Shown here one piece after another: positions 25,087 through 51,820 of a stretch of 64,000 nt of DNA (within the stretch, counting starts at the first letter, position 1; every line of letters starts with the position of its first letter). This stretch comes from Gammaproteobacteria bacterium. GTDB lineage: Bacteria > Pseudomonadota > Gammaproteobacteria > Eutrophobiales > Eutrophobiaceae. The stretch covers positions 224,001 through 288,000 of the forward strand of contig OZ220696.1 of NCBI GenBank assembly GCA_965116495.1, written 5' to 3'. A program made the position numbers and the translations under genes. The notes under the pieces are model-generated. The model ran no database searches, was not told where the DNA came from, and was given only the letters and a program-made list of their open reading frames with translations.

Positions 25087-25092
25087 GGTCTT

Positions 25093-25434: not shown

Positions 25435-25437
25435 AAT

Positions 25438-28469: not shown

Positions 28470-28490
28470 GAGGTTTGCTTCTCATTGAGG

Positions 28491-31990: not shown

Positions 31991-32530
31991 TCAGAGCCTT
32001 CTCCAATCAACCAAGTCTTCAACTTTCAGTTTCTTTTTAGGCCAGCGAGGCATCCAGGCGGGAGGTTCTGCAGGAAAGCCGACGCCGATGCACAGGCTGG
32101 GGTCCAACTCGTCCGGCAGATCCAGCAACACCCGCAGGGCTTCCGTGCTGAATGAAGTCATGGGGCCGGCGACCAGTCCGGTTGCATGCGCGGCCAGGAG
32201 CATATTCTGCGAATAGTGTCCGACGTCGTAATAGACCTCTTCATAGCTCTTTACCAGGCAGTCATGGCCGGCCAGCGTCCAGTCGATGCAAATGAAGATC
32301 AGTGCAGACGGTAACCCGGCAACCATTCCCGGGAAAAAGAGCTTGATTTTTTTAATCAGGTCCTTATCCGTTATACAGACAAAACGGTGAACGCGCATAT
32401 TGCCGCCTGTCGGCGCCCAGCGCCCCGCTTCCAGAATAGTCCATAACATCTCATCGGGTACGGCCTTGTCCTGGTCGTAGTATTTGGCGACCCGTCTGGT
32501 ACGGATCGCTTCCAGTGTGTCAAGCGTCAT
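31991..32530 (-). CDS. Nitroreductase family protein
   Basis: AIRTRR, ILEAGRWAPTGGN, DVG...QNMLLAAHATGL, IGVGFP. Confidence 0.9.
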   Translation of the reverse strand: MTLDTLEAIRTRRVAKYYDQDKAVPDEMLWTILEAGRWAPTGGNMRVHRFVCITDKDLIKKIKLFFPGMVAGLPSALIFICIDWTLAGHDCLVKSYEEVYYDVGHYSQNMLLAAHATGLVAGPMTSFSTEALRVLLDLPDELDPSLCIGVGFPAEPPAWMPRWPKKKLKVEDLVDWRRL

Positions 32531-32858
32531 TGTTGCTCTCCCCGAAGTCTCTCTCCTTTACGATTTGGGCCAGTTCAGTGATTTTTTCGCTCAAATATTG
32601 TTTGAAAGCATCGAGGTCGCCGCCCTGCGTCCGGGCAGATTCGACCGGCATCCGTTTATTCAGGTCATCAAGGAATTGCGCCAGGTCTCCGGCGGATCTT
32701 GGCGCCCACATGCCGGCCATCCGATCAGCGACGCTGACCATGCGCAGTACCGCATAATCCGGCGGTTCCTTGAGCAGGCCCTGGGCACTGGTCAGGATGT
32801 AAGCGATTAATTCTATCGCTTCGTCTTCATTCAATGTGATGTTGTCGTCGTTATTCAT
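32520..32858 (-). CDS. Small helical protein, DUF6092-like
   Basis: EL.AY..TSA.GL..EP..Y..LR pattern; overlaps the nitroreductase start. Confidence 0.6.
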   Translation of the reverse strand: MNNDDNITLNEDEAIELIAYILTSAQGLLKEPPDYAVLRMVSVADRMAGMWAPRSAGDLAQFLDDLNKRMPVESARTQGGDLDAFKQYLSEKITELAQIVKERDFGESNNDA

Positions 32859-32866
32859 ATTCCTCT

Positions 32867-34063
32867 TTACTGTTGTGCCAGGTCTTTGCGGTCTACATAG
32901 GTAAATACGCCGGCGCCGGTGATGAAAACCAATGCAGTGATAGTGAGCATGGCAGTAACACCCCAGAATTCCAGGGCAAAACCGTTGATGACAGGGCCGA
33001 TTACAGAGCCGAGAGCTTCACTCGCGGGGATCAATGCAACGAAACGGCCAACCTTATCAACTTCGGCTATCAGCGCCATAATCAGACAAAAACCGGCGTT
33101 TATCCAGAATTGGAATGAGCAGACGAGAACCAGATAGATCATATCCGATAAAGAAAGCCCATCCAGTAAAAGCAAGGTTAATACAATACATAGAATCGTA
33201 ATGCCATAGCCGTAATACATGGGAATACGTCTGCGAAACCAGGCAGCCAACGGTGCGCCTATTGCGCCAAACAGAGTACCAATCGCTAAAGCATAACCAG
33301 TTGCCGCGGGCGAGAGATCGGCATAATGGGCAATCCTTTCAAAAAATGTCCATGCCCCACCGAATCCCAGTGTGAACGTTACCATCACCAGGTGAGCCAG
33401 CAAAGGTTGGGAGATAAGGCCTTTGCCTGTCTCAACGCTCCCCAATTTGTTTTCGGTAATTCTTACGGGCGATTTTTTGTCTGAATTATTGCCGACGGGA
33501 ATGATTGGGATTAAAAATAATGATAATAGTGTCGTTCCGCACATCAGGTAAACCACGCCGGCAAAACCGGCAGATCCGCTTGCCCAGGGGAACAGTGCCA
33601 ATAATACGGCCGCGCTGCTCACGGAACAGATGATCATAGTGCTGAAGCCTTTCTCCGGCCTGGAACCGTCACCGAGTATGGTGATGGAGGGCGAAGCGAA
33701 TAAGCCGCTGCTTAAACCGTTCAGCAAATTTAACCAGATCAGTGCCGGGTAATTCTCCGTCATGCCCATCAGGGCAAATGTGAGGCCCATCAGTACAATT
33801 CCGACCGAGCAGGTAACCCGCCAGTTTACTTCCCTGATCCAGAGGTAGGCGCTGGCCCCCGAGAGTCCGAATCCGGCAAAGAATACGCTGGCAAAAATTC
33901 CCAGCCGTGATTCCGGCCATTGGAATGATTCGGCGGCGGCGCCGACTATTCCCGGCGTGACTGCCCCCGGCATAACGGCAAATGAAAACAGGAGGGCGGC
34001 AGCGAGGATAACCGGAAAACGATCCACATCAGGGTTTGCCGCCCCTGTGGTGATTGCAGTCAT
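32867..34063 (-). CDS. MFS transporter
   Basis: About 12 hydrophobic segments, W.F.ERI motif, 398 aa. Confidence 0.88.
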   Translation of the reverse strand: MTAITTGAANPDVDRFPVILAAALLFSFAVMPGAVTPGIVGAAAESFQWPESRLGIFASVFFAGFGLSGASAYLWIREVNWRVTCSVGIVLMGLTFALMGMTENYPALIWLNLLNGLSSGLFASPSITILGDGSRPEKGFSTMIICSVSSAAVLLALFPWASGSAGFAGVVYLMCGTTLLSLFLIPIIPVGNNSDKKSPVRITENKLGSVETGKGLISQPLLAHLVMVTFTLGFGGAWTFFERIAHYADLSPAATGYALAIGTLFGAIGAPLAAWFRRRIPMYYGYGITILCIVLTLLLLDGLSLSDMIYLVLVCSFQFWINAGFCLIMALIAEVDKVGRFVALIPASEALGSVIGPVINGFALEFWGVTAMLTITALVFITGAGVFTYVDRKDLAQQ

Positions 34064-34779: not shown

Positions 34780-34788
34780 AGGTCAATC

Positions 34789-35514: not shown

Positions 35515-35529
35515 GATTCAAGAGAGTGA

Positions 35530-36573
35530 TTATTTCCGTAACAGGGGCATCACTTCCTCGGCAAACAGGCGCATGCCGCCCAGCCAGCGGCCCGCCCATC
35601 CGGAAAAACCACCGGTATCCACGTCAACATCATCACAGGCCACGAAGGAACACATCATTTCATTAAACCCCTTATCGAAAACTGCTGTCTGTAATTTTTC
35701 CGCTATGGTATCAGGACGTCCGAATACCATCAGGTCGGGGTCGGCCCCTTCAGGTACGATTGCCTGTGTCGCGGTCTGGGGTTCCGTATCGATGGGAAAA
35801 CTGGTAATTTCGTGAACATTCTTTCTCGCCTTTGCCTCGTTCTCATCGTTGCGAAATACAATGTAGGCTGAACGCAAGGCAGTATAGTCTTCCTCACTAC
35901 GGCCTGCTGCCTGCCACTCTTCCTGAAACGCGTTCACTACAGTGCGCACTGTTTCTTCATGACCCCACATCATTGCCAGGGCATCACCCTGTTGCGCGGC
36001 AATTCTCGGCATTAATCTTTTACTGGTATTACAGGCAATATAAATCGGCGGGTTTGGTTTCTGTATGGGTTTGGGACTTAATATGGCATCTCTCAACTGG
36101 AAATGCTCGCCGGCGTAATTGGCAAGTTCCTCAGTCCACATGCACTTCATCACTTCGATGGTTTCTATCAGTATCTGCCGTCTCTCCTGAATAGTGTCGG
36201 GGAAGCGCTGTCCGATCATCTCATACTGGTGCCAGTCGTCCCCGGCGCCCAGTCCGACGCTGACACGGCCATTGGAAATAACGTCGATCGACGCAATGGT
36301 CTTTGACAGCAAGGGGGCGAATCGTCTTACTGCCGGGGTGGCCATGGATCCTAAGCGGATGGTTGTCGTGCTTGCTGCAATGGCTGATAGAAAACTCCAG
36401 GTGTCAAAAATCTCGATGTCTCTCGGGATGGGTGCATGGCCGGTAATGTTGTCCTGGGTCCAGATGGCTTCAAAGCCGAGTTGTTCCGCTTCCCGGGCAA
36501 CGGCCTGGTAGAAGGGAAAAGTAAAACCGCTGCCGTAACCCATGAACAGGCTGAATGTTCGCTTGTTATTCAT
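35530..36573 (-). CDS. LLM-class (luciferase-like) flavin-dependent oxidoreductase
   Basis: AEQLGFEAIW, AIAAST..IRLG, D.ISNGR..VGLGAG, PKPIQKP.PPI. Confidence 0.9.
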   Translation of the reverse strand: MNNKRTFSLFMGYGSGFTFPFYQAVAREAEQLGFEAIWTQDNITGHAPIPRDIEIFDTWSFLSAIAASTTTIRLGSMATPAVRRFAPLLSKTIASIDVISNGRVSVGLGAGDDWHQYEMIGQRFPDTIQERRQILIETIEVMKCMWTEELANYAGEHFQLRDAILSPKPIQKPNPPIYIACNTSKRLMPRIAAQQGDALAMMWGHEETVRTVVNAFQEEWQAAGRSEEDYTALRSAYIVFRNDENEAKARKNVHEITSFPIDTEPQTATQAIVPEGADPDLMVFGRPDTIAEKLQTAVFDKGFNEMMCSFVACDDVDVDTGGFSGWAGRWLGGMRLFAEEVMPLLRK

Positions 36574-36639
36574 CCGGTTTACCCAGAGACCTGCCCGATC
36601 ATTTTAATCACCACACGCAAAAATGGGGAACCTGCGTCC

Positions 36640-36664
36640 GGGGACAGATTTGAAATCTGTCCCC
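36640..36664. repeat. REP-like palindrome
   Basis: GGGGACAGATTT-G-AAATCTGTCCCC, perfect 12-bp arms, intergenic. Confidence 0.7.
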
Positions 36665-36693
36665 TATGGCAACATAAACGCGGCCATGGCAGC

Positions 36694-37776
36694 TCATACA
36701 TCACAGAATATCCTGCCGTTTTCTGCAAATACATCATCGTCAAGCAGGATCTTTGGCTGCAGGACTGTCCAGTCCCAGTGAACGGATGATTTACTCAATG
36801 CCATATCCAATTCCATATCTCCAATGTTGCTGAGCATACTCAGGTCACCCATGCCGCAGGTGATGGAACTGTAGACTCGTTCCCATTCCTGGCTCTGGGT
36901 GAGTAGGGCATTGGGGTTATTGCCGATATTGAAATGCACCGGGCCGTTATAAGCGCCGTCATCGCCTAAGTCTTCCAGCCATTGTTCCAGGCGTGAGGCA
37001 AGCACAGGGTCACCGCCTATATTAACCAGGCGGCCTTTCTCAAAGGTAAGACGGACAGGAGTATCCGGTTTTTCGTGATAGTCAGGGTGGTACAACAGGG
37101 TTCCGTCTACATTAATGGTTCCGTTGCCAAGTCCCATGGGCACCAGTACTCCAGGCTGGGCGGGAGGCAAAAATGCCCATGGCGCTTTCCATTCTTTCTT
37201 GTCGGGGTCCCACAGAAACCCGTCTCCCGCGGCGCCGTCAAGGTCAGCTATATCCAGGGTAAACTCATCTTGTCCGGTGGATACGGTACAGAACTTTGCT
37301 TCGGTAAAGCGTTCGGCAATCCGGTCCGCGTGCCGCCTGATCGCGTGAATATCGGTATGCAGCATGGTGCGGATCAAAACATCATCCATAAACGGCCCAC
37401 CAATGCCGTCACCCGGACAGAGGATGCGTGCCCCATTATTAATGGCATCGATGATGAATGTTGCATAGCCTACTGCCATATCGATAATCAGGTCGGCTTC
37501 CAGAGCCGCCGCGGCCAGCATGGACGGCCAATGTGAGCCGGGTTGGTAGGTCGCACCGCCTCTCGGAATACGGCATTCAACCCGGATGGCCTCTGCTCCC
37601 ATTGTCTGCGCCAGCCCGTGAAACGTTGCAACGACATAATCAGGCGTGCGGGCATCGCTGATAATCAATACCTTGTGCTCCGGTTGCAGGTTACAGACGT
37701 CCCTGTATATCAGGTTTACAACTTCAATAAAATCCGGTTTGAGCCTGGATGAGTTGTCAGGTGTAATGGCTGCCAT
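36694..37776 (-). CDS. M29-peptidase/NicX-fold metalloenzyme (paralogue 1)
   Basis: NG.I.VDG, P..LTFEKG, VHFNIGNNPNA, C-terminal HWD; GGAGG RBS before ATG 37776. Confidence 0.75.
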   Translation of the reverse strand: MAAITPDNSSRLKPDFIEVVNLIYRDVCNLQPEHKVLIISDARTPDYVVATFHGLAQTMGAEAIRVECRIPRGGATYQPGSHWPSMLAAAALEADLIIDMAVGYATFIIDAINNGARILCPGDGIGGPFMDDVLIRTMLHTDIHAIRRHADRIAERFTEAKFCTVSTGQDEFTLDIADLDGAAGDGFLWDPDKKEWKAPWAFLPPAQPGVLVPMGLGNGTINVDGTLLYHPDYHEKPDTPVRLTFEKGRLVNIGGDPVLASRLEQWLEDLGDDGAYNGPVHFNIGNNPNALLTQSQEWERVYSSITCGMGDLSMLSNIGDMELDMALSKSSVHWDWTVLQPKILLDDDVFAENGRIFCDV

Positions 37777-37796
37777 GGTATTTAAACCCTCCGTTA

Positions 37797-38579
37797 TCAG
37801 TTTATGGTAATACGGTTGCCGACGGGTGGTTCGTCCTGAAACAGTCCGAATTCCTCTATACTCTCTTCGGGTGGCGGAGCACAGCTCCATTTTCGGCTCG
37901 GCTTCCAGCCGAACCTGTTTTTGATGTCTGCCAGGTGCTCTGCCGTTTTATAAGCCGCATAAACACTATCAACGACCGGTACATCCAGTTGCTCCTGTAG
38001 CTGCCGGTAAAAACCGAATTCAAGGGTACAACCGAGAATAATGCCTTCCGCAAAGTCATGTTTAATCGCTTCACCTGCATGCTGCAACATGGCTTGTTCC
38101 GTGAGTTGTTTATTGTGCAGGAAGTCGGTCGTAGTCAGGCCCATCGCCCGTATGGATGCCAGTTGTCTGCCGTAACCGTAATGATGAATATTGTCATGCA
38201 TCTGGTTCACTTCTTTCTGACTGCCGACAATGACGGAAAACCGGTTACACAGGTTGGCCATGATTTGAATACTGGCCTGGCAAGGTCCTACTACGACCAT
38301 TTCCCCGGATATTTCCCGTGCGTCGGCAAGGATGGGATCGTAAAAACAACCCAGTACTGCTGCATCATAATGGTTGTTTGCCGCATGGCGTACCAGGCGG
38401 ATGATATCGGTATAAAACAGCGCTTCATAGGCGCGGTATTCCAGGTCAACGGGGGAAGGCGATGTATTAAGTGATACCACATCCACTTCAGCCTCTGCTG
38501 ATTTAATATCCCTTATCAGAGCTGCGATTGCCTCATCGGCATAAGGCCGCCCCAAAGGATTAACCCAGATGATTTTCAT
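37797..38579 (-). CDS. Asp/Glu/hydantoin racemase family protein (3)
   Basis: WVNP, LGCFYDP, AREIS, ILGCT, VPVVD. Confidence 0.9.
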   Translation of the reverse strand: MKIIWVNPLGRPYADEAIAALIRDIKSAEAEVDVVSLNTSPSPVDLEYRAYEALFYTDIIRLVRHAANNHYDAAVLGCFYDPILADAREISGEMVVVGPCQASIQIMANLCNRFSVIVGSQKEVNQMHDNIHHYGYGRQLASIRAMGLTTTDFLHNKQLTEQAMLQHAGEAIKHDFAEGIILGCTLEFGFYRQLQEQLDVPVVDSVYAAYKTAEHLADIKNRFGWKPSRKWSCAPPPEESIEEFGLFQDEPPVGNRITIN

Positions 38580-38768: not shown

Positions 38769-39854
38769 ATGGCTGAAACAACAGATGTCAGTACCGGATT
38801 AAAACCGGAATTTGTCGCGGTGGTCGATAAAATCTACCGTGATTTATGTAACCTGCAACCTGGAACCAGGGTATTGATCATCGCTGATTCCCGTACGCCT
38901 GAACATGTTGTTTCACTGTTTATGGGCATGGGCATGGCAATGGGCGCCGAGGTATCGGTATCGCGGAACAAGATGCCGCCACCGCCGTCATTGCAACCGG
39001 GATATGTGTGGAATCCCATGGTAGTAGCGGCCGCGCGTGAAGCGGACCTGATCGTCGACCTGGCTGTAGGCTATGCAGAGTTCATGGCGGAAGCGGTTGA
39101 GCGGGGCGCCCGGATTATTTCGCCGGGTGACGGTACCGGTGGGCATCATCTTGAAGATACCCTGATCCGGACCATGTTGAACGTGGACATACACGCCCTG
39201 CGTAAGGAAGCCCAGGAAATTGCTGAAATGTTTACTCAGGCAAACAGTTTGCGGATGACTTCGGAGGAGGGTACGGATTTCGAGTTGGATATTCAGGGAC
39301 TGGAAGGAATTTCATCAGATGAGTTCCTTTGGGACCCAGACCTGAAAAAATGGACGGGCACCTGGGCGTCGTTGCCGCCGGCAGCGCCGGGTATTGTTAT
39401 CCCCAAGGGCAGGGGCAACGGCGTGCTGGCCGTTGACGGTTTCCTGCTCTATGAACCGGCTTATGATCATGAAACGCCGAATTCGCCGATACTGCTGACT
39501 TTTGAACAGGGCAGGATCATGGATATCCAGGGGGCAGCCTTATTCCGGGATCGACTCAAGAACTGGCTGGATGCGCAACCGGACGACTCGCCGCGTTACG
39601 GACCTGTACACCTGAACCTGGGTACAAACTCAAGGGCTATGCTGACGCAACACCAGGAATTTGAAAAACTGCGCGGCACCGTTTGTTGCGGGATCGGTGA
39701 CAGCAGCCTGCTCACGCGTATGTGGCATGGTTCCGACCTTGAACCCGTCGTATCCCATATCCACTGGGACATATTGCTTATGCGACCCACGGTTATGCTG
39801 GATGAGCAGACTATCTGTGAAAAAGGCGTTATTCCTGCCGATTTAATAGTCTGA
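38769..39854 (+). CDS. M29-peptidase/NicX-fold metalloenzyme (paralogue 2)
   Basis: Colinear with 36694-37776 (LKP.F, IYRD.CNLQP, DLAVGYA, FLWDPD.K.W, GPVH.N.G, HWD). Confidence 0.75.
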   Translation: MAETTDVSTGLKPEFVAVVDKIYRDLCNLQPGTRVLIIADSRTPEHVVSLFMGMGMAMGAEVSVSRNKMPPPPSLQPGYVWNPMVVAAAREADLIVDLAVGYAEFMAEAVERGARIISPGDGTGGHHLEDTLIRTMLNVDIHALRKEAQEIAEMFTQANSLRMTSEEGTDFELDIQGLEGISSDEFLWDPDLKKWTGTWASLPPAAPGIVIPKGRGNGVLAVDGFLLYEPAYDHETPNSPILLTFEQGRIMDIQGAALFRDRLKNWLDAQPDDSPRYGPVHLNLGTNSRAMLTQHQEFEKLRGTVCCGIGDSSLLTRMWHGSDLEPVVSHIHWDILLMRPTVMLDEQTICEKGVIPADLIV

Positions 39855-41057
39855 CTGGTTTCCTGCCTGGGCAGGAAAAGGTTGAGCACGTTCTTTATTG
39901 ATAGTTGAAAACACCAGAATAAGGATGGCGCTGATGATGAAACCAATAATCGTCATGAGGATGGATGAATCGAATTTACCATCCTCCAGGAAAAGTGAAA
40001 CCAGTGCCGGTCCGGAAGAAAAACCTAGCCACATGATCAGGTTCCCCCATAATACGCCGCGGCCTGACGGCGTCATTCGGCCCAGCAGGATAAAGTAATA
40101 CGGCGTGAGAAAGGTGATGGAGAAGTTGAACATCGCCGTGGCACAAAAAAAGACGGTTAATGATGCCGAGTGAAACAGGAAGAATGTACTTATCGTTATC
40201 AAAACCGTACCGGCCAGGATCGGCTTAATCTCGCCCAAACGGCCGCCGATCGCTGCCGCACAAAATACCCCTGCCAAAGCCACTAGTTGGCTAGCGCCCA
40301 CTACCGGGCCTACGGTTTTGGCGGCGTGGCCGTAAGAAACGCCAAGCCGTTCAAAGTAGGCCCAGATACCGGCATTGGCAGCGTAGTTTATGAACAATGC
40401 CAGCAAGAGAACACCAAGACCGAGCCATGGAACCTGGTTATCGGTTAGAGGTTTACTGTTTTCTTCACCTACAGGTAATGGGTGAGGGTCTTCCGGGTAA
40501 TACAACAGCAGGAAGGGTACGGCAGCAATACAGATCAGGATAATCGTGTAATAGGCGCCGGAGACGCCGTAATACGGGTAAATCAGGGGTAGAAAGGACA
40601 ACCCCAGGGCGCTCATGAAATAAGGTGAGCCGTATAGTATGGCGGTGGTTCGTTCCACGTCCCGGACCCTGGTGACGGCTATAGCCGCGGTACACCAGGT
40701 AATGCCGGCGACAAAACCGGATATGAAGCGGCAGGCGGAAAATATTGCCAGGCTGCCAAAAGCAAAGATGGTCATGAGGTTACACAGAACGAGTATGCAT
40801 AAACAGAACAGTGCAATCCGTTTAAGATTTAATCCCGGGCGGTGCAGGTACAAAGTGGATGCTACAGTGCCCAGTGATGTTGCCCAGAATTCCAGTGATG
40901 CCAGCCTGCCCGCGGTTTCCAGGGAGAATTCCAGGTAGTCGACCAGGGCGCCGATAATTGAAGGAGCGAATGGCGTAAACGCATTGCCGGCAGTACCGAC
41001 CATGAGGATACTGAAGGCGACTATAAGCCTGTGCTTAAGGTCAGTACTGTCTCTCAT
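39843..41057 (-). CDS. MFS transporter
   Basis: About 12 hydrophobic segments, RFISG, WAYFERLG. Confidence 0.88.
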   Translation of the reverse strand: MRDSTDLKHRLIVAFSILMVGTAGNAFTPFAPSIIGALVDYLEFSLETAGRLASLEFWATSLGTVASTLYLHRPGLNLKRIALFCLCILVLCNLMTIFAFGSLAIFSACRFISGFVAGITWCTAAIAVTRVRDVERTTAILYGSPYFMSALGLSFLPLIYPYYGVSGAYYTIILICIAAVPFLLLYYPEDPHPLPVGEENSKPLTDNQVPWLGLGVLLLALFINYAANAGIWAYFERLGVSYGHAAKTVGPVVGASQLVALAGVFCAAAIGGRLGEIKPILAGTVLITISTFFLFHSASLTVFFCATAMFNFSITFLTPYYFILLGRMTPSGRGVLWGNLIMWLGFSSGPALVSLFLEDGKFDSSILMTIIGFIISAILILVFSTINKERAQPFPAQAGNQSDY

Positions 41058-41096
41058 CGGTCCGGTTCATATCCATAATGCATAAAGGAACGGAAG

Positions 41097-43744: not shown

Positions 43745-43753
43745 CGGATAATG

Positions 43754-44016
43754 GTACTCTTTCAACTTAATATTGACATGTTCAGCGGGTCGGGAAGCGG
43801 TTGAGCGCCAGGCACGCCGCGCAGGTAATGGCGCGCCCTTGCCAAGCGGCGTAACGCCGCGGGCGACCGCTTCCCGGCCCGCCCGCAGGGAGCCACACAG
43901 CGGCGCCAATACGGCGTTGCAGCCCTTGACAAGGGCGCGCCATTCTCTGCGGGCTGCGCCTTGTCTTGACGCCGCTGTGTGGCTCTGAACATGTCAATAT
44001 TAAGTTGAAAGAGCAC
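43754..44016. mobile_element. 263-bp MITE, copy 2
   Basis: About 97% identical to 13822-14084, same orientation, 32-bp TIRs with one mismatch, followed by TAG. Confidence 0.9.
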
Positions 44017-44042
44017 TAGTCCTGTCAAGCAATGGTCGCCGG

Positions 44043-45269
44043 TTAGTTCGGGCGTTTGTAGAACTTGCCCGATTTCATGATGTGGGTAATCGTGGCATCC
44101 GGTTGTTGCAGGATCGAAATGTTGCGCAACGGATTACCGTCCACGATTAATATATCAGCCAAGGCGCCGGGTTTAATACAACCCAGCCTGGCATCCATAT
44201 TCAGCAGTTCAGCATTGATTTTCGTCGCAGACCGTAATATTTCAAACGGTGACAGTACCTCGGCGCGAATCTCAAATTCACGGGACTGCATATCATGTAA
44301 AGGGCCGAACAAGTCTGTCCCAAACCCGGTACTGGTTCCTGCTTCTTTTAAATTTTCCAGGCTTTTAAGCCCCGCCTGGTGAACCACCGAGACTTTTTTC
44401 GAACTGTATTCAGGCAAGCCTATTTCTTTCCCGCGGTCTATCATCGCCTGGTAGGTTACCAGGGTAGGATTAACGAAGGCGTTGGATCGTGTGGCAAGTA
44501 ACGCTGTTTCCAATTCAATGAAATTGGCGTGTTCTATGGAACGAACACCGCATTCCAGCGACCTGCGGATTGCTTCATCGCTGTATGCGTGAGCGAGGAC
44601 GTAAGTTCCACGGTGTTCAGCTTCTTCAACGGCAGCGCGTATTTCATCTTCTGAATATTGCAGGCCCAGGAGAGGGTCGCTTGGGGAGGTAACCCCGCCG
44701 GAAGCCATGATTTTAATTGCATGGGCGCCTTTGCGTAATTCCTCCCGAGCCGCTTTTCTTACCGCCGACACACCATCGGCTACAATGGTCATGCCGGCCC
44801 CGCTACATGAGCAGGCAACAGCATTATTGCCCGGCTCCCTGAAGTCGCCGTGCCCGCCGGTTTGGCTGAGACCGCGACCGCAATGAAACAACCTTGGGCC
44901 GATAATCAAATCTTCCTCCACCGCTCTTGACAGCCCGCTATCGGCGCCGGCGGCATCACGGATGGAAGTAAAACCCCGAAACAACATTTCCCGCATCAGT
45001 CTCGCAGCTTTCAACGCTACCCATGACGGCGGCAGTTCCTGAAGCCGGGCAGGGGAGACGTCGTGGTCGGTTACGTGGACGTGGGCGTCGATCAATCCCG
45101 GCATAAGCGTCTTGCCTTTTACATCGACTATTTCTGCCGAAGCAGACCGGAGCGGCCGATCCGACACCTCACGGATGTCCGTTCCTTCAACAAGGACATG
45201 ATAACCCTGCTTGACTTCGTCCACTTCTCCGTCAAACAGGTTTGCGTTGGTAAACAGTGTTGGGACCAT
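44043..45269 (-). CDS. Metal-dependent amidohydrolase (Xaa-Pro dipeptidase-like subgroup)
   Basis: PGLIDAHVH, GFTSIRDAAG, SQTGGHGD, IKIMASGG, AHAY, IEH, GTD. Confidence 0.92.
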   Translation of the reverse strand: MVPTLFTNANLFDGEVDEVKQGYHVLVEGTDIREVSDRPLRSASAEIVDVKGKTLMPGLIDAHVHVTDHDVSPARLQELPPSWVALKAARLMREMLFRGFTSIRDAAGADSGLSRAVEEDLIIGPRLFHCGRGLSQTGGHGDFREPGNNAVACSCSGAGMTIVADGVSAVRKAAREELRKGAHAIKIMASGGVTSPSDPLLGLQYSEDEIRAAVEEAEHRGTYVLAHAYSDEAIRRSLECGVRSIEHANFIELETALLATRSNAFVNPTLVTYQAMIDRGKEIGLPEYSSKKVSVVHQAGLKSLENLKEAGTSTGFGTDLFGPLHDMQSREFEIRAEVLSPFEILRSATKINAELLNMDARLGCIKPGALADILIVDGNPLRNISILQQPDATITHIMKSGKFYKRPN

Positions 45270-45368
45270 TTGTTATTTACATCCGGATGCAATAATATAA
45301 TTATACAACGATTGGCCAGTATCTTATTTATCCTTTTGTCCATCAAGGTAGTTAGGGGGGATTAAACA

Positions 45369-47762
45369 ATGAAAACGTTCATTCGCAAACCGCTTGTTAT
45401 TGCTGTAGGTCTTGCAATACAGTCGATTTCTGTCCAGGCGCAGGAGGAAGCTTCGGGTGCGGTTCTGGAAGAGATACTCGTCACCGCCAATCGCCGGTCA
45501 GAATCAGCACTGGATGTTCCCTATAACGTCACTGCATTATCCGCCGACCAGCTTGAAGCAGCGGGCGTCAGTGACATTTCCGGGATGCTTCGCATGGTGC
45601 CGGGTCTCAGTTCATTCGATGAAGGACCACGGGTGTCGGGTAATCGGAACAATTTTAATATTCGCGGATTAAATGCCAACAACCTCGGCAATGAGGACGA
45701 TAACCCCCGTATCGGTCAGGCAACGGTTTCAACCTACGTGGGCGAGACGCCGGTATTTTTTCCATTAAAACTCGTTGATCTCGATCGAGTAGAGGTATTA
45801 CGAGGACCGCAGGGCACACTCTATGGCTCAGGTTCGGTTGGTGGCACGGTCAGATTTATTCCTAATAAACCGGAGTTTGACGGGTTCACGCTGGATGTGA
45901 ATGCAGAAGCTTCCCTGACCAAGAAATCCGACGATGTCGGCTACGAGGGAAATTTCACCGTCAACGTACCGCTCAGCGAAGCATTCGCAGTGCGGGCTAC
46001 CGCCGGTTATGAAGAGATTCCCGGTTTCATCGATGCGCTCGGCCTGGTACAGCAGACGGGTACGCCGGAAGATCCTGGAGCAGTGGTGCTGGCTGACCCC
46101 GGAGATATTCTCGGCAGCCTGCCTGCATATGGTCCCGAAAAGGAAGACGTCAACGATGCAGAAGTTACTTTTGCCCGTGTCAGTCTGCGTTTCCTTCCCA
46201 GCGATCGGTTGGATGTGAATGTGAATTACCATTATCAACAGACCAAAGTAGGCAGTCGCTACGAAGATAACCCGGAATATGGAACCGGTGAAGAGTACGT
46301 TATGTACAAGGCATTTACCGACCCGCATGATGCATCCATACAACTGGGTAATATTGATATGGAGTTCGACCTCGGATTTGCCAGGTTGACGTCGGCGTCT
46401 GCGTATTCCGAGATTAATATAGACAGCGTTTCTGAATCATCCGGATTTCTGAGAACCAATATTCCGCAGTATTACTTCGGTCTGCCCCGTATTATTTCGC
46501 CGATTATCCGCGGTCAAAACTCGCAGACATTTACCCAGGAAATCCGCTTGGTATCAGAGGCTGGAGGAAGGTTTGAATGGGTAGCAGGCGGGTTTTACCT
46601 GGAGAACGACCTGGATTTCGACTTGTTTCAACCCCTGTTTGGCGTAAATGATTACGCCAATGCGTATTTTGGTTTGAATCCCCCTTTGAATTTTACCGAC
46701 ACATTGGCAACGGGTGGCACCGAACAGGAATTCAGGGATATGGCCGTGTTTGGCGAATTGACCGTGAATATCACCGATCGCTGGCAGGTCACCGGTGGAA
46801 TCCGTATCTTCGATCAGGAACTGGATGGAACTTCGGGCATCCCGCTGCCGTTTGCATCCCGGACATTTGAATTTTTCTATTACGGTAGTGCAACGGATGA
46901 TTTTCTGCTCGGTGGTATCAACCCGACGGAAAACGAGGTGTCGGATGAAATATTCAAGGTGAATACCTCTTACGAAGTGACTGATGACATGTTGGCCTTT
47001 TTTACCTGGTCCCAGGGCTTTCGGGCTGGCGGCGCCAACCAGTTGCCAGAGATAGATCCGTTTGGTAACGACTATTCCGATATTCTCCGGTTTCAATCAG
47101 ATGATGCGGAGAACTACGAAATCGGAATCAAGGGTACCTGGAACGCGCAGGTCAATTACACGGCCACGGCATTCTGGGTGGACTGGACGAATTTTCAATC
47201 AACCCTGTTTTCACCATTCGGCATCGCCTTTGTGGACAACATAGGCGGCGCTCGGTCCCGCGGCCTGGAACTGGAATTGAATGGCTACCTGACCGACCAA
47301 CTTGGATTCGGGCTCAGCTATACCTATATAGATGCAGAGACCACCGATCCGTTCGAGCAGCAGTCAGGCAATCCTGCGACCACGGTTCCGGATGGTACGA
47401 CATTGCCGGGTTCATCGGAGAGCACGTTTTTCGGCCATCTCCAGTACGAATATCCCCTGGCGACATCAAAACTCGTCTTTTATACGGATTTGGCTTACCG
47501 CAGTGACACCAACAGCGCCTTTATCGATCAACCGTTGCTTGCATCTGAAAATTTTGTACCGCTGGATGGTTTCGCGGTCTGGAATCTTTCCGTTACCTGG
47601 GCCAGGGATAATTACAGTATTACCGCATTCGGGGAAAATGTTTCAAACACCCGTGCAACCTCGGTTGTGTCATCACCGGATTCCTTTGGTGAGCAGGATC
47701 AGGGATATGGAGTGATCAAACCCCAGACCTTCGGATTACGCTTCAAATGGTCTTATCAGTGA
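45369..47762 (+). CDS. TonB-dependent receptor
   Basis: Signal peptide, TonB box LEEILVTA, RVEVLRGPQGTLYG, C-terminal P.TFG..F.W.Y. Confidence 0.95.
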   Translation: MKTFIRKPLVIAVGLAIQSISVQAQEEASGAVLEEILVTANRRSESALDVPYNVTALSADQLEAAGVSDISGMLRMVPGLSSFDEGPRVSGNRNNFNIRGLNANNLGNEDDNPRIGQATVSTYVGETPVFFPLKLVDLDRVEVLRGPQGTLYGSGSVGGTVRFIPNKPEFDGFTLDVNAEASLTKKSDDVGYEGNFTVNVPLSEAFAVRATAGYEEIPGFIDALGLVQQTGTPEDPGAVVLADPGDILGSLPAYGPEKEDVNDAEVTFARVSLRFLPSDRLDVNVNYHYQQTKVGSRYEDNPEYGTGEEYVMYKAFTDPHDASIQLGNIDMEFDLGFARLTSASAYSEINIDSVSESSGFLRTNIPQYYFGLPRIISPIIRGQNSQTFTQEIRLVSEAGGRFEWVAGGFYLENDLDFDLFQPLFGVNDYANAYFGLNPPLNFTDTLATGGTEQEFRDMAVFGELTVNITDRWQVTGGIRIFDQELDGTSGIPLPFASRTFEFFYYGSATDDFLLGGINPTENEVSDEIFKVNTSYEVTDDMLAFFTWSQGFRAGGANQLPEIDPFGNDYSDILRFQSDDAENYEIGIKGTWNAQVNYTATAFWVDWTNFQSTLFSPFGIAFVDNIGGARSRGLELELNGYLTDQLGFGLSYTYIDAETTDPFEQQSGNPATTVPDGTTLPGSSESTFFGHLQYEYPLATSKLVFYTDLAYRSDTNSAFIDQPLLASENFVPLDGFAVWNLSVTWARDNYSITAFGENVSNTRATSVVSSPDSFGEQDQGYGVIKPQTFGLRFKWSYQ

Positions 47763-47811
47763 TGAGGGTTATATATCTCTGAACAAAAAACAACCAATCC
47801 GCGTTTGCGCA

Positions 47812-48483
47812 ATGATTGCCATACGCGCCGGATTGGAGTCATGGGGCGCGGTAACCCGGGAGCTTGTTGATGAAATTATAGCTCCCGATGTTGAAGTAAC
47901 CATTCGGGATCTGCCTGACGCCCCTGTCACTTCTATCATGAGCGCCTGTGATCATGACCTTGTCGCGCCGTATAATGTCCAGGCTGCAATTCAGGCAGAA
48001 CAGGAGGGTTTCGATGCCATTACCACGGGTTGTTTGCTTGACCCCGGCATTGAAGCCATGAAAGAAGCCGTGGACAGGCTCGTTGTCGTGGGGGATTGTG
48101 AAGCCGTAATGCATCTGGGCTCTCTGTTGGGACGCCGAATCTGCGTTTTACTTCCGAACAAAACAACCTCCGGTTTGATTACATTCAACGTATTTGAAGA
48201 TCTGGTGCGTAAATACGGATTCCAGGACAAGCTGGCCTCCATACGCGCTGTTCAATCCACCAGCCTGGATTTTGCAGCCGAACGGGACGACCTGCCGGGG
48301 AAAATGCTGGAACAGGCGCGACTTGCAATCAGGGAAGACAGGGCGGACGTGATCGTAGGTTACGGCAGTTTGACGGTTATTAATCATTTGCGTGCGCACC
48401 TCGCCGTGCCCGTCCTCGAATCAATACAATGTACATTATCCCTGGCGACTGAACTGGTTCGACATCGCGATTGGCAGGAATAA
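47812..48483 (+). CDS. Asp/Glu/hydantoin racemase family protein (4), second catalytic Cys missing
   Basis: GFDAI.TGCLLDPG, LASIR, ADVIVGYGS, VPVLE. Confidence 0.8.
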   Translation: MIAIRAGLESWGAVTRELVDEIIAPDVEVTIRDLPDAPVTSIMSACDHDLVAPYNVQAAIQAEQEGFDAITTGCLLDPGIEAMKEAVDRLVVVGDCEAVMHLGSLLGRRICVLLPNKTTSGLITFNVFEDLVRKYGFQDKLASIRAVQSTSLDFAAERDDLPGKMLEQARLAIREDRADVIVGYGSLTVINHLRAHLAVPVLESIQCTLSLATELVRHRDWQE

Positions 48484-50078
48484 TGGACAGCAGTGCCCGC
48501 GACTTGAATAACCAACTGGAGGCCGCATCGACGTTGATGCAACAGGGAAATCTACCTGCAGCAGAAGCAACAATCGCAAAACTCAAGACAACCCACGACT
48601 CCATTTCTGCCGTATGGGCATTGGCAAGTGAGATATCCTTACGCCAGGGCAAGACAGGTCATGCCTGGACGGAAATAAACCGTGCGGTGGGCCTTGACGC
48701 ACATAATGCCAGGCGGCACGTGCAGCGGGCGCGATGCGCTATTCTTGCCGGGTTTGTTTCAGAGGCGAAGCAGTCTGTTGAAGCCGCTACAATATCCGGG
48801 GTGACGGAAGTTGATGATCAGTTGATGCTGGCCTCTGTCCTGGTGCGTTGCGATGACCATGAGAGCGCACTTGCCTGGTACAAAAAAGCTGAGGTAATAC
48901 AGCCTGACCGAAATGAACTGCAACGCGGCATGGCTTCGGTTTACCGTTTTCTCGGCGATATACAAAAGGCTGAACAGGCTTGTGACAAGGCCCTGGCAAG
49001 CGAACCGCACGACTACGAAATGCTCAACCTTCGTTCGTCTTTGCGAAAGCACACAAAAGACAGTAATCATATACGGGAACTGAAAGAACTCCTGGGGATG
49101 GGAATCAGGAACTGGCGCGGGGCGGTACAGGTTGCCTATGCCGTATCCAAGGAACTTGAGGACATTGAAGAATACAATGAAGCATTTGAATACCTGGAAA
49201 AAGGTGCATCTTTAAGGCGCAGGAATCTGAAATATGACCTGAAAGATGACATTAAAATCTTTAATGCCATAATCAATGCTTTCACCGGAGAAGCCCTGCA
49301 GGCTGCTGCCGAACACGGTTACGCATCGGATGCGCCTGTCTTTATACTTGGTCTGCCGCGGACGGGATCAACGCTTGTCGAGCGTATTATTTCATCACAC
49401 AGCATGGTGATTTCAGCAGGTGAACTCAATGATTTTGCCCTGGAACTGTTGAAATTGACCGGTGCCGGCAACAAAGGCGGGCAACCTGCGCGATTGGATT
49501 TACCAAAGGCTTCACTAGAGGTCGATATGCACAGCCTTGGTCAAAATTATGTAAATGCTGTTAGGCCGCTGATCAAGGATACTCCCCGGTTTATTGATAA
49601 ACTCCCCCTGAACAGTCTTTATGTCGGGTTAATCTATCTCGCGTTGCCGCATGCCAAGGTGGTACATGTTAATCGCCATCCGGTGGATACCTGTTTTGCC
49701 ATATACAAATACCTGTTTAAAAATGCTTATCCGTTTTCGTACAATCTGGATGAACTGGGAGATTATTTTATCGGACATCACAGGTTGATGGAACACTGGC
49801 GGAAGATACTGCCGGACGGGTGGATGTATGACATCCTGTATGAAGATATCATCTCTAATCAGAAAGAGGCGACAGAGAACCTTCTTCATTATCTTGATTT
49901 GGAATGGGAAGACTCCTGTCTTGAATTTTATCTTAACGAGCAGGCATCCACGACGGGCAGTGCAAGCCAGGTACGAGAGCCATTGTACAAGTCGTCGGTG
50001 GGCAAATGGAGTTACTATGAAAAGCAGTTGCTGCCACTGGTTGATAAACTGAAAAACGCCGGTATCAACATCGATTGA
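48483..50078 (+). CDS. TPR-repeat sulfotransferase family protein
   Basis: TPR-like helices, then FILGLPRTGSTLVERI, FIDKLPLN, R.P.D, YED, TGSASQVREP. Confidence 0.9.
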   Translation: MDSSARDLNNQLEAASTLMQQGNLPAAEATIAKLKTTHDSISAVWALASEISLRQGKTGHAWTEINRAVGLDAHNARRHVQRARCAILAGFVSEAKQSVEAATISGVTEVDDQLMLASVLVRCDDHESALAWYKKAEVIQPDRNELQRGMASVYRFLGDIQKAEQACDKALASEPHDYEMLNLRSSLRKHTKDSNHIRELKELLGMGIRNWRGAVQVAYAVSKELEDIEEYNEAFEYLEKGASLRRRNLKYDLKDDIKIFNAIINAFTGEALQAAAEHGYASDAPVFILGLPRTGSTLVERIISSHSMVISAGELNDFALELLKLTGAGNKGGQPARLDLPKASLEVDMHSLGQNYVNAVRPLIKDTPRFIDKLPLNSLYVGLIYLALPHAKVVHVNRHPVDTCFAIYKYLFKNAYPFSYNLDELGDYFIGHHRLMEHWRKILPDGWMYDILYEDIISNQKEATENLLHYLDLEWEDSCLEFYLNEQASTTGSASQVREPLYKSSVGKWSYYEKQLLPLVDKLKNAGINID

Positions 50079-50104
50079 TCAAAGCCTGAACGGGGAGAAC
50101 GCCT

Positions 50105-51094
50105 ATGCTTTACCGGATTCCAAAATGCCTCCTGTTTGTTACATCTATGGGTCTTTTTGGTCTTTATACCTGCCCTGTAATCTCAGGACCGGTCCGCGAC
50201 ATGGATATGACCTGGGTGGAAAAGTATGTCACATACACTCAGGACCATCACGGACAGTTGAATGCTACCGATTTTCATTTTCTGGCGGAGGTCATTTATG
50301 CGAAAAGATCAACGATCAAAAATGTAGACTCTTTCCTGTACGTTAAAGGGAGCGATACGCCTCTGGCAAGCTACACTGAAAAAGATCCGTACGCATTCAC
50401 AAACGGCCTGTTCTACACAAGAAAATCAAAGTCCTATGATGATCTGACGTCGCTTGAGGCTGCACATCCTGCCTCCACCCGGTATGTATGGGAAATACAT
50501 GGGCCCGGGGGGAATATTCAACTCGATCCGATACGGATTGGCGGACCGGAATTACGTACCCAAATCCCGGACATGAGTCCGATTTACCTGTCCCAGTCCG
50601 GTCAGCCGGTGACCGACTTTAATAATATAGATCCTGATATGTCACTGGGTATCGGTTGGGACCCGTTTACCATTGGCGCTCCCCTGGAAGGAACCAACTG
50701 GGATGACCTGGTATTTGTGCTGGTCAGTGACTGTCATGGCAAGGTCATATATACCAGCGGCGCACCGGAGGATGAGGACGGGTTTGCCGACTTCAGTGCA
50801 ACGTCAACGGAAATGCCGCCAGCGTTACTGGAACCCGGGATGGGCTACGTAGTGTTCATCTCCCAGGTCAATTATGTGGATGCGAATGTCAGTCATGGCA
50901 TTGAACAATTGGCGGCGAATTCATTCGCGGTGGAACTGGAGGTCAGGACTGCAGGCCAAATAGACCCGGCCCGAACCTGTCCGGAACCGGCGTACAAGGC
51001 CGCTTACCTGTGGTCCGGGAGAACACCTGCCGGGACCGGGATGGTCCCGTGGCCGGCCTTTCTGGACCCGTCGAATACAACACCAGAGGATTAA
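50105..51094 (+). CDS. Hypothetical exported protein
   Basis: 329-aa ORF, GGAG RBS, signal-like N-terminus, beta-rich; family not recognised. Confidence 0.7.
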   Translation: MLYRIPKCLLFVTSMGLFGLYTCPVISGPVRDMDMTWVEKYVTYTQDHHGQLNATDFHFLAEVIYAKRSTIKNVDSFLYVKGSDTPLASYTEKDPYAFTNGLFYTRKSKSYDDLTSLEAAHPASTRYVWEIHGPGGNIQLDPIRIGGPELRTQIPDMSPIYLSQSGQPVTDFNNIDPDMSLGIGWDPFTIGAPLEGTNWDDLVFVLVSDCHGKVIYTSGAPEDEDGFADFSATSTEMPPALLEPGMGYVVFISQVNYVDANVSHGIEQLAANSFAVELEVRTAGQIDPARTCPEPAYKAAYLWSGRTPAGTGMVPWPAFLDPSNTTPED

Positions 51095-51097
51095 ACT

Positions 51098-51820
51098 TTG
51101 GCTGAGGCGATAAGACATAACATTAATTGTGCTGATTTATTTCCGGTTCCCCTGGTCATTGATAATTTTGGAGAGAGCGCCAGGGAGTTAAACCGGAGAT
51201 TAATGGACGATATTCATATCGAGATGAAACAGGAAGCCGCTTCTGCCTCAAGGAGTTTTGTTTCAGCGTGGCAATCGGAATCCGGGCTCGAAAAGAAGTA
51301 TGCTTCTTTTCTGGAACTGCAAAACCACATTGAGGCAACTGCCGCGACCTACCTGGCTCATATCAAATTCGCTGAAACCATTTCCGTTAAATGTGCCGGT
51401 TTATGGGCGAACTGTATGTCAGGTGGAGGGGGACATTCGATGTATCACATTCATGGTTCCGGCGCGGTCATCGCGACAGGTGTCTATTATCCGGCATCGC
51501 TGATGAAGGATGGGGAAAGCAAGGAAGAAGACCTGGATGATTTCAACCCGCAAACCATCTTCAGGGAAACCGGAGTAGGCGGGGAACTAATCATATATGA
51601 TCCCAGTTATATAATTAAAAGACAGGTAATCAAACCATCGGGATCACACTACTACGAAGCGATTAAAGAGATATCTCCCAGGGAATCCCTGTTAATCCTG
51701 TTCCCTCAATACCTTCCGCATTCCGTCGAGCCGTTGCTTGATGATCAATTCAAACGCTACAGTATTTCCTTTACCATTGAAAAGGTCCGGGGTGAACAGT
51801 TAAAGTTGAGACGGGTTTAG
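51098..51820 (+). CDS. Putative 2OG-Fe(II) oxygenase (TIGR02466-like)
   Basis: LFP.P, W.S, WAN, H.H, GVYY, LFP.YLPHSV.P, R.SISF. Confidence 0.8.
   Translation: MAEAIRHNINCADLFPVPLVIDNFGESARELNRRLMDDIHIEMKQEAASASRSFVSAWQSESGLEKKYASFLELQNHIEATAATYLAHIKFAETISVKCAGLWANCMSGGGGHSMYHIHGSGAVIATGVYYPASLMKDGESKEEDLDDFNPQTIFRETGVGGELIIYDPSYIIKRQVIKPSGSHYYEAIKEISPRESLLILFPQYLPHSVEPLLDDQFKRYSISFTIEKVRGEQLKLRRV

What the first reader, a model, noticed from the sequence alone, without database searches (positions are those of the whole stretch)
31991..51820. 20-kb uncharacterised catabolic island, probably for an N-heterocycle or (thio)hydantoin-type compound
Seen: a TonB receptor, two MFS transporters, an LLM oxidoreductase with nitroreductase and a DUF6092-like protein, two NicX/M29-fold paralogues, four racemase-family genes, DUF917 with hydantoinase/oxoprolinase, an amidohydrolase, a sulfotransferase and a 2OG oxygenase. 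Many genes have overlapping stop/start codons. Established: DUF917 members act as thiohydantoin desulfhydrases in ergothioneine catabolism, and NicX and the racemase-fold maleate isomerase act in pyridine ring degradation. No ergothionase or urocanase-like gene is in the window. Inference: an undescribed uptake, oxidation, ring-opening, isomerisation and hydrolysis pathway. This is the best candidate here for a new metabolic system; the substrate cannot be read from sequence.
Basis: partly seen in the sequence, partly recalled or inferred. Interest (0 to 1): 0.75.

Follow-up and report, generated by a model that had tools for sequence, protein, structure and literature searches.

The report
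Likely cyclic-dipeptide breakdown gene cluster
This is a conserved 18-gene bacterial cluster that likely takes up and breaks down cyclic dipeptides (very stable ring-shaped peptides), which matters because bacteria are known to degrade these molecules but the ring-opening enzymes were not found in the papers searched.

Summary
The cluster is real. All 18 genes are at the stated places. Order is conserved in six congeneric genomes (18, 18, 18, 18, 16 and 14 genes), and subsets recur rearranged in distant bacteria. Other parts point the same way. The amidohydrolase is about 52% identical to a characterised Xaa-Pro prolidase. The racemases keep the Cys dyad (3 of 4) but lack allantoin/hydantoin-binding residues, like the DKP epimerase NozR. 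HyuA and DUF917 are predicted to form a complex (0.88 against best control 0.18). The NicX-fold pair lacks NicX Ser302/Arg293 and the M29 dimetal ligands. Best reading (0.5): catabolism of 2,5-diketopiperazines, probably proline-containing, by uptake, epimerisation, ring opening and dipeptide hydrolysis, with a redox side branch. Ergothioneine and nicotinate pathway membership failed the tests run. The CDO–racemase–DUF917 association was already noted in silico (Andreas & Giessen 2024), read there as hydantoin/purine metabolism or biosynthesis. No substrate is shown experimentally.

The parts
31991..32530 (-). CDO subunit A (AlbA-like nitroreductase), non-CDPS type: AlbA C115 is Asp102, S54 is Gly43
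   Evidence: Top PDB hits 9exv_A E 6e-19 and albonoursin synthase 8uc3_A E 1e-17; residues
32520..32858 (-). CDO subunit B (AlbB-like, PF19585/DUF6092) with E31, P32, Y35, R39 matching AlbB E33, P34, Y37, R41
   Evidence: Pfam E 3e-14; AlbB 8uc3_D E 2e-4; Y and R in 15 of 15 session homologues
32867..34063 (-). MFS transporter 1
   Evidence: Pfam PF07690
34060..34779 (-). Racemase-fold protein rac1, Cys75/Cys179 dyad; likely DKP epimerase
   Evidence: PF01177
34789..35514 (-). Racemase-fold protein rac2, Cys76/Cys181 dyad, hydrophobic pocket (V9, V14, A115, I116); likely DKP epimerase
   Evidence: Hits allantoin/hydantoin racemases and OpaE
35530..36573 (-). LLM oxidoreductase, possibly F420H2-dependent
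   Evidence: Best NCBIfam model TIGR03560, 151 bits, below cut-off 231; genome has CofC, CofD, CofE and FbiC/CofH matches
36694..37776 (-). M29/NicX-fold protein A, predicted mononuclear site H/E/H/D
   Evidence: start from relatives
37797..38579 (-). Racemase-fold protein rac3, Cys78/Cys184; dispensable (absent from the G004 and G005 clusters)
38769..39854 (+). M29/NicX-fold protein B (H281, E299, H332, D334); likely ring-opening metalloenzyme
   Evidence: AF2 pLDDT 91.6; Foldseek NicX TM 0.75, M29 peptidases 0.62; conservation
39843..41057 (-). MFS transporter 2, the usual neighbour of M29b and the amidohydrolase elsewhere
41097..42206 (-). DUF917/S-Me-THD-family protein, predicted partner of HyuA
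42203..43744 (-). Stand-alone hydantoinase/oxoprolinase A-type ATPase subunit (513 aa), no HyuB at the locus
43752..44020 (.). MITE with terminal inverted repeats, inserted between amidohydrolase and hyuA; absent at this junction in G015; not part of the pathway
   Evidence: 15 near-full copies in the genome; junction comparison
44043..45269 (-). M38 amidohydrolase close to prolidases Sgx9260b/c; likely Xaa-Pro dipeptidase or N-acyl-proline hydrolase
   Evidence: 3MKV E 2e-123, about 52% identity counted by hand; 3FEQ/3N2C E 7e-118; ligands H63, H65, K186, H227, H247, D319
45369..47762 (+). TonB-dependent receptor
   Evidence: orthologue in 12 of 21 dereplicated locus groups
47812..48483 (+). 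Racemase-fold protein rac4, second catalytic Cys missing; dispensable
48471..50078 (+). TPR-sulfotransferase-family protein; role unexplained
   Evidence: PAPS-loop-like GLPRTGST; in 13 of 21 groups
50105..51094 (+). 329-aa protein with two Ig/FN3-like beta-sandwiches, likely an exported partner of the TonB receptor
   Evidence: AF2 pLDDT 83.7; only weak fold matches, TM 0.2-0.27; in 10 of 21 groups
51098..51820 (+). 2OG-Fe(II) oxygenase (TIGR02466-like, below cut-off); peripheral
   Evidence: in 1 of 21 distant groups

Best explanation
The cluster likely imports and degrades cyclic dipeptides (2,5-diketopiperazines, DKPs), most probably proline-containing ones, to free amino acids. Shown: gene identities, conservation, active-site residues, co-occurrence. 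All of the following steps are inferred. (1) The TonB receptor with the Ig-fold protein, and two MFS transporters, bring DKPs in. (2) The Cys-dyad racemase-fold proteins epimerise D-residues in the ring, as NozR does. (3) The ring is opened by the M29/NicX-fold mononuclear metalloenzymes; I favour hydrolysis (about 55%) over NicX-type dioxygenation (about 35%). For other DKPs it is opened by an ATP-driven HyuA-DUF917 heterodimer in which DUF917 takes the place of HyuB. (4) The prolidase-like amidohydrolase splits the resulting Xaa-Pro or N-acyl-proline. (5) The AlbAB-like oxidase and the LLM (possibly F420H2-linked) form a redox side branch that makes or removes alpha,beta-dehydro residues. 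The sulfotransferase and 2OG oxygenase are not explained.
For: CDO pair. PF19585 is CDO subunit B (PMC11055893). A related CDO oxidises cyclo(Leu-Pro), first on proline (PMC11760959). No CDPS in the genome, and no scaffold synthetase in the cluster. Amidohydrolase close to Sgx9260b/c, which hydrolyse Xaa-Pro and N-acyl-prolines (PMC11511702). Racemases: 0 of 27 have Asn at the Asn12 position (one Asp in a doubtful column, one gap) and 0 of 27 have Thr119. Asn/Asp12 is 100% conserved in allantoin-hydantoin racemases, while OpaE/NozR-like enzymes are hydrophobic there (PMC12661438); NozR is a DKP D/L isomerase (PMC10156859). HyuA-DUF917 model: score 0.88, best of 3 controls 0.18, runs agree in at least 95% of contacts, partner pLDDT at least 89; the mark was reached by 116 of 157 solved and 2 of 215 mismatched pairs. 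The only solved DUF917 relative found is the lone 2O3I. Co-occurrence among 21 dereplicated M29-anchored groups with at least 6 kb: CDO pair 6, racemase 8, amidohydrolase 6, DUF917 5, ProC 4, cyclophilin 3, although DUF6092 is in only 1 of 400 class genomes. An unrelated second CDO cluster in G008 holds a 49%-identical amidohydrolase, HyuA+HyuB, a racemase and a TonB receptor. An Arthrobacter plasmid has permease, M29-like gene and proC adjacent. M29 genes occur in genomes with no DUF6092 match (G004, G428, G429) and directly beside the amidohydrolase (L078-L081), matching the two-step 'DKP hydrolase plus dipeptidase' route reported without genes (PMC3852281).
Against: No biochemical or genetic data; every step is guilt by association. 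The authors who first saw non-CDPS CDO clusters proposed hydantoin/allantoin substrates or biosynthesis and warned the enzymes may not be oxidases. AlbA Ser54, whose loss cut activity 62-fold, is Gly here and in 13 of 21 homologues. About 52% identity to a prolidase does not fix specificity, and the same family holds ochratoxinases. The most constant partners, TPR-sulfotransferase (13 of 21) and TonB receptor (12 of 21), have no DKP link. Two of the six CDO groups probably come from the same organisms anchored by the two paralogues, and one ProC group (L067) is likely housekeeping. Some loci carry polyamine-type or purine/allantoin-type transporters instead. HyuA was seen in only 2 of 21 distant groups. 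The complex model may not reflect real binding.
Confidence: 0.5

Rival explanations
1. The cluster catabolises hydantoin-, thiohydantoin- or imidazolinone-type rings (oxidised purines, histidine or creatinine derivatives), with racemisation at C5, ATP-dependent opening and desulfuration or deamination by DUF917.
For: Family names of racemases, HyuA and DUF917; 154 of 274 CDO operons were classed as hydantoin-associated (PMC11055893 supplement); an NCS1 permease lies beside a DUF917-HyuA pair in G427.
Against: Allantoin/hydantoin racemase signature missing; thiohydantoin desulfurase cut-offs missed threefold; no ergothionase or second urocanase found; no carbamoylase in the cluster; amidohydrolase is prolidase-like, scoring 33 bits on the dihydropyrimidinase model.
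Confidence: 0.17
2. It degrades another lactam or hydroxylated N-heteroaromatic (pyridone, pyrrole or pyrazinone alkaloid): the LLM hydroxylates or cleaves, the NicX-like pair dioxygenates the ring, and the racemase-fold proteins act as maleate-isomerase-like cis-trans isomerases.
For: M29b is structurally closest to NicX (TM 0.75 against 0.62) and keeps the Fe ligands His265, His318, Asp320.
Against: Ser302 (essential in NicX), Arg293 and His105 are replaced by Gly, Glu and Tyr; a true NicX-type paralogue exists elsewhere in the genome; no deformylase or maleamate amidase in the cluster; does not explain the CDO pair or the prolidase.
Confidence: 0.13
3. It is a patchwork of two or three co-located modules with different substrates (M29-amidohydrolase-MFS-TonB-sulfotransferase; CDO-racemase-LLM; HyuA-DUF917), not one pathway.
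For: Gene content varies between loci; DUF917-HyuA-racemase operons occur without CDO or M29 in Rhizobiales and in this genome at about 1.33 Mb; the genome holds many such catabolic blocks (23 HyuB matches).
Against: The modules are interleaved in different orders in unrelated hosts (L032, L041, L064, L091, L112), which argues for shared selection.
Confidence: 0.12
4. It is a tailoring or detoxifying system that modifies imported DKPs (dehydrogenation, epimerisation, hydroxylation, sulfation) and exports them, rather than mineralising them.
For: CDO, NozR-like epimerases, a 2OG oxygenase and a sulfotransferase are all known as tailoring enzyme types; two MFS could be exporters.
Against: No CDPS in the genome and no NRPS in the cluster; three predicted hydrolases and an uptake receptor fit catabolism better.
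Confidence: 0.08

Closest known systems
Non-CDPS cyclodipeptide-oxidase-like clusters (Andreas & Giessen 2024, PMC11055893)
   Same: CDOA/CDOB pair without CDPS or covalent-FMN Cys, with PF01177 racemases and DUF917. Their table lists a gammaproteobacterial pair (A0A3C0BYQ7/A0A3C0C0X2) whose sequence, compared by eye, closely matches the L039 pair, itself 74% and 68% identical to ours.
   Different: They proposed hydantoin/purine metabolism or biosynthesis. The passages read do not mention M29/NicX-fold proteins, a prolidase orthologue, TonB uptake or a HyuA-DUF917 complex. No function was tested.
AlbAB / NdasCDO cyclodipeptide oxidases
   Same: Top structural homologues; B-subunit E, P, Y, R catalytic set conserved.
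   Different: Biosynthetic, CDPS-linked, covalent FMN through Cys115; here Asp102, Gly at Ser54, no CDPS.
NozR and OpaE (Asp/Glu racemase family epimerases of DKP or ketopiperazine scaffolds)
   Same: Cys dyad and hydrophobic pocket positions.
   Different: Biosynthetic; orthology to NozR not tested; four paralogues here.
NicX 2,5-dihydroxypyridine dioxygenase
   Same: Fold and three Fe ligands.
   Different: 18% identity; Ser302, Arg293, His105 replaced; no nic pathway neighbours.
Sgx9260b/Sgx9260c prolidases (M38)
   Same: About 52% identity to 3MKV, all metal ligands present.
   Different: Their genomic context was not examined; activity here untested.
ATP-dependent lactamases HyuAB/CapAB/OplAB; thiohydantoin desulfurases (DUF917)
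   Same: ASKHA-type A subunit; DUF917 family membership.
   Different: Short 513-aa A subunit, no B subunit at the locus, predicted to pair with DUF917; far below desulfurase cut-offs.

Membership tests
Cyclodipeptide oxidase (AlbAB type) | Nitroreductase-like A gene adjacent to PF19585 B gene | tested here: met
   11-bp overlap
Cyclodipeptide oxidase (AlbAB type) | B-subunit E33, P34, Y37, R41 | tested here: met
   E31, P32, Y35, R39
Cyclodipeptide oxidase (AlbAB type) | A-subunit R24, R28, N55, S139 | tested here: met
   R12, K16 (conservative), N44, S126
Cyclodipeptide oxidase (AlbAB type) | A-subunit Ser54 | tested here: not met
   Gly43; Ser in 5 of 21 homologues
CDPS-linked biosynthetic CDO | Cys115 for covalent FMN and a CDPS gene | tested here: not met
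   Asp102; no PF16715 match in a 99.5% complete genome, control rang
Cyclodipeptide oxidase (AlbAB type) | Filament formation and alpha,beta-dehydrogenation of a DKP | not testable with these tools
   Needs purified protein
NicX dioxygenase | Fold and Fe ligands His265, His318, Asp320 | tested here: met
   TM 0.75; H281, H332, D334 each in 117 of 118 close homologues
NicX dioxygenase | Ser302 ligand, Arg293, His105 | tested here: not met
   G308, E299, Y102 each in 118 of 118
M29 aminopeptidase | Six-ligand dimetal site E, E, E, H, H, D (pattern recalled; seen as the majority in the distant set) | tested here: not met
   Positions 206, 281, 306 are Q/A, H and T/V/D/C, against E, E, H in 54, 74, 74 of 118 distant relatives
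Thiohydantoin / S-methyl-thiohydantoin desulfurase | NCBIfam equivalog cut-off | tested here: not met
   113 of 440 and 136 of 450 bits
Ergothioneine catabolic pathway | Ergothionase and thiourocanate hydratase in addition to hutHU | tested here: not met
   One PF01175 and one PF00221 match, adjacent, with ASG motif
Allantoin/hydantoin racemase | Two catalytic cysteines | tested here: met
   rac1-3 yes, rac4 lacks the second
Allantoin/hydantoin racemase | Asn/Asp12, Thr/Ser118, Thr119 | tested here: not met
   None of the four window proteins has any of the three; mapped through rac2 onto 3QVJ
NozR-type DKP isomerase | Clustering with NozR in a tree | not tested
   No NozR sequence was returned by a tool
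Sgx9260b/c prolidases (M38) | High identity and dimetal ligands with carboxylated Lys | tested here: met
   NCBIfam Xaa-Pro dipeptidase 242 bits, below its 500 cut-off
Sgx9260b/c prolidases (M38) | Xaa-Pro hydrolysis | not testable with these tools
   Needs assay
HyuAB-type ATP-dependent lactamase | HyuB (PF02538) partner encoded with HyuA | tested here: not met
   23 HyuB matches in the genome, none at this locus; DUF917 predicted as partner
F420-dependent LLM | Score above an F420-LLM family cut-off and host F420 synthesis | tested here: inconclusive
   Below cut-off; F420 genes present, the CofC match has one TGA inside

The most novel reading that the evidence does not exclude
This is a genetically defined catabolic pathway for cyclic dipeptides with two new types of ring-opening enzyme: an M29/NicX-fold mononuclear metalloenzyme and an ATP-driven HyuA-DUF917 heterodimer. 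In its boldest form, a filament-forming oxidase makes a dehydro-DKP, a racemase-fold protein tautomerises it to a 5-hydroxypyrazin-2-one (the aza-analogue of NicX's substrate), and the NicX-like pair cleaves it with O2. It would also assign DKP catabolism to many of the 241 non-CDPS CDO operons and give the widespread HyuA-DUF917 pairs a function.
Probability: 0.35. Interest if true: 0.87.

Novelty: new variant of a known kind. Interest (0 to 1): 0.72.

Why it matters
DKPs are protease-resistant signals, antimicrobials and protein breakdown products. Bacteria degrade them, but in 2013 the ring-opening enzymes were stated to be unknown, and 15 peptidases and two D-hydantoinases failed on them (PMC3852281). 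My searches found no later gene-level pathway (the library lacks most subscription papers). This cluster names specific candidates and a small substrate panel, making that open question directly testable. It also offers a testable reinterpretation of the majority class of CDO-like operons and of the very common HyuA-DUF917 pair (4617 DUF917 homologues among 7997 scored).

Tried and rejected
Single-sequence PDB search with M29b found nothing; only the profile and the fold found NicX. Literature searches for DUF917 with thiohydantoin or ergothioneine gave 0 papers, and a five-term search gave 4 irrelevant ones, so the desulfurase chemistry is recalled or taken from NCBIfam names. The original prolidase paper was not held; a review was used. 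DUF6092 was not found in plasmids or in 301 genomes of G428's phylum, where the control also did not ring, so that is no evidence of absence. The Atlas and fold search gave no function for the 329-aa protein; the wide structural search was not run. Promoter and terminator scans were at or near chance (19 against 20.5; 28 against 21.7 ± 4.6). RNA: four metatranscriptome runs of one study hold short low-depth contigs of related strains over 19-23 of 30 bins. No silent-stretch control was laid, so expression is not shown; the depth peak is the multi-copy MITE. Four look-ups of earlier findings returned nothing. Rejected readings: nitroreductase as the LLM's flavin reductase (it pairs with DUF6092 and best matches AlbA); recent foreign island (no GC shift, no tRNA); polyamine catabolism (only scattered neighbours).

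Full report
Observation. The NicX/M29 assignment needed more than Pfam: a 42-sequence profile hits NicX 7CN3 at E 2e-5, and the AlphaFold model (pLDDT 91.6) matches NicX at TM 0.75 and M29 peptidases at 0.62. Two starts should move (HyuA 43744, M29a 37776). The block sits between a type I R-M/SIR2-HerA region and nuoA, with normal GC and no tRNA.

Conservation. A close M29b match is in 8 of 23 genus genomes, counting the own, and in none of 18 other genomes sampled. I mapped six of the seven relatives (G007 is fragmented): four keep all 18 genes in order, G005 keeps 16 and G004 keeps 14 at another chromosomal place. Three carry a LysR gene between amidohydrolase and TonB receptor; the own genome has no close copy (best 28%). 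A metagenome scan gave 75 loci. With three genome loci these 78 fall into 36 groups at 85% anchor identity, 21 of which have a locus of at least 6 kb; the 15 shorter groups were left out of the counts. Among the 21: TPR-sulfotransferase 13, MFS 13, TonB receptor 12, 329-aa protein 10, racemase 8, CDO pair 6, amidohydrolase 6, DUF917 5, LLM 4, ProC 4, cyclophilin 3, HyuA 2, 2OG oxygenase 1. These are family-level best hits. Groups 1 and 6 are probably the same organisms seen through the two paralogues, and one ProC group is likely housekeeping. Orders differ between hosts, so this is selected linkage rather than one inherited block.

The key pair. The top PDB hits of the nitroreductase are the A subunits of two cyclodipeptide oxidases, and DUF6092 hits AlbB. 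Andreas & Giessen (PMC11055893; passages, one table part and searched supplements seen; one PDF supplement and the operon figure not readable) define PF19585 as CDO subunit B. They report that 88% of 274 operons lack a CDPS and are enriched in hydantoin racemases, DUF917, AroM, peptide transporters and peptidases. The B-subunit catalytic set is conserved; Cys115 is absent as in other non-CDPS CDOs, and Ser54 is Gly. The genome has no CDPS match. DUF6092 is rare: 1 of 400 class genomes and 7 of 23 genus genomes.

Three further parts point to DKPs. First, the amidohydrolase is about 52% identical (counted by hand) to Sgx9260b, described with Sgx9260c as hydrolysing Xaa-Pro and N-acyl-prolines (PMC11511702, passages). 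Second, rac1-3 keep the Cys dyad, but none of 27 aligned cluster racemases has Asn at position 12 or Thr at 119. Asn/Asp12 is invariant in allantoin-hydantoin racemases, and hydrophobic residues mark the OpaE and NozR groups (PMC12661438, passages and section 8). NozR epimerises cyclo(Trp-Trp) (PMC10156859, passages). Third, ProC genes above the family cut-off lie inside three distant locus groups and beside an M29-like gene on an Arthrobacter plasmid. A separate CDO cluster in G008 has the same logic with different genes: amidohydrolase (49%), HyuA+HyuB, racemase, TonB receptor.

Ring opening. In 118 close homologues H281, E297, H332 and D334 are each present in 117, and E299 in all 118. This keeps three NicX iron ligands (PMC7910607, passages) but not Ser302, Arg293 or His105, and loses the M29 dimetal pattern seen in most distant relatives. 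A true NicX-type gene lies elsewhere in the genome. So the pair is neither NicX nor an M29 aminopeptidase. It occurs in genomes with no DUF6092 match (G004, G428, G429) and directly beside the amidohydrolase, so I favour direct hydrolysis of the ring. Dioxygenation of a hydroxypyrazinone tautomer of the CDO product remains the bolder alternative (chemical inference). HyuA has its phosphate-binding motifs but no HyuB at the locus. The HyuA-DUF917 complex scored 0.88 against a best control of 0.18, with at least 95% contact agreement and partner pLDDT of at least 89; the mark was reached by 116 of 157 solved and 2 of 215 mismatched pairs. No like solved complex was found. This supports, but does not show, a new two-subunit ATP-dependent lactamase; the ATP-driven mechanism of HyuAB is recalled. 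The LLM scores best on F420-type models below cut-off; the genome has F420 genes, and one distant cluster holds an above-cut-off F420 LLM.

Against. Nothing is assayed. The sulfotransferase, the most constant partner, is unexplained. Some loci have polyamine-type or NCS1 transporters. DUF917-HyuA-racemase operons also occur alone, and DUF917-HyuA without a racemase in Haloferax. The published reading of such clusters is hydantoin/purine metabolism or biosynthesis.

Novelty. The CDO-racemase-DUF917 association is in print as an untested in-silico class, and a close homologue of this pair is in that table. I found no paper describing this cluster, the M29-fold family in it, a HyuA-DUF917 complex or a gene-level DKP catabolic pathway (most subscription papers are not searched). 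PMC3852281 (passages) states that the ring-opening enzymes were unknown. PMC11760959 (two passages) shows CDO action on cyclo(Leu-Pro). Verdict: a real, conserved, uncharacterised pathway; DKP catabolism at 0.5; new variant of a known kind; interest 0.72.

Noticed in passing
window 43752-44020 and about 13820-14085: A roughly 260-bp MITE with long terminal inverted repeats, 15 near-full copies in the genome at 90-100% identity; the copy here interrupts the amidohydrolase-hyuA spacer and is absent in G015. A transposase-like ORF at 16447-17592 (IS630-like by recall) is a possible mobiliser.
   Followed up: partly
window 20379-31830: Defence block: type I restriction-modification genes (HsdM, HsdS, HsdR-like ORF) with a SIR2-HerA pair (25438-28469) inserted between HsdS and HsdR; both score below the NCBIfam anti-phage cut-offs. 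Content at this spot differs among relatives.
   Followed up: no
G000:C1 about 1329860-1335518: Second HyuA-DUF917-TonB receptor-racemase operon (38-45% identical to the window's), near a dipeptidase-like ORF judged by eye.
   Followed up: partly
L114:1602-13149 (G008:C184): A different CDO cluster with canonical HyuA+HyuB, prolidase-like amidohydrolase, racemase, TonB receptor and Rieske protein.
   Followed up: partly
G000:C1 whole genome: Large expansion of ATP-dependent hydantoinase/oxoprolinase genes (23 HyuB matches), many LLMs and TonB receptors, and an F420 biosynthesis set in a gammaproteobacterium.
   Followed up: no
G000:C1 3968368-3969387: A NicX-type paralogue that keeps His, Arg, Ser, His, Asp at the NicX positions, next to sugar-ABC and ribokinase-like ORFs rather than nic genes.
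   Followed up: no
G000:C1 about 1188000-1204000: A paralogous block with two LLMs, two TPR-sulfotransferases, MFS genes and the closest TonB receptor paralogue (35%), suggesting a recurring TonB/TPR-sulfotransferase uptake module of unknown role.
   Followed up: no
L041, L064, L070, L074: These loci carry two CDO A genes (two full A/B pairs detected in L041, L064, L074), and L070, L073, L074 carry several divergent M29/NicX-like paralogues.
   Followed up: no
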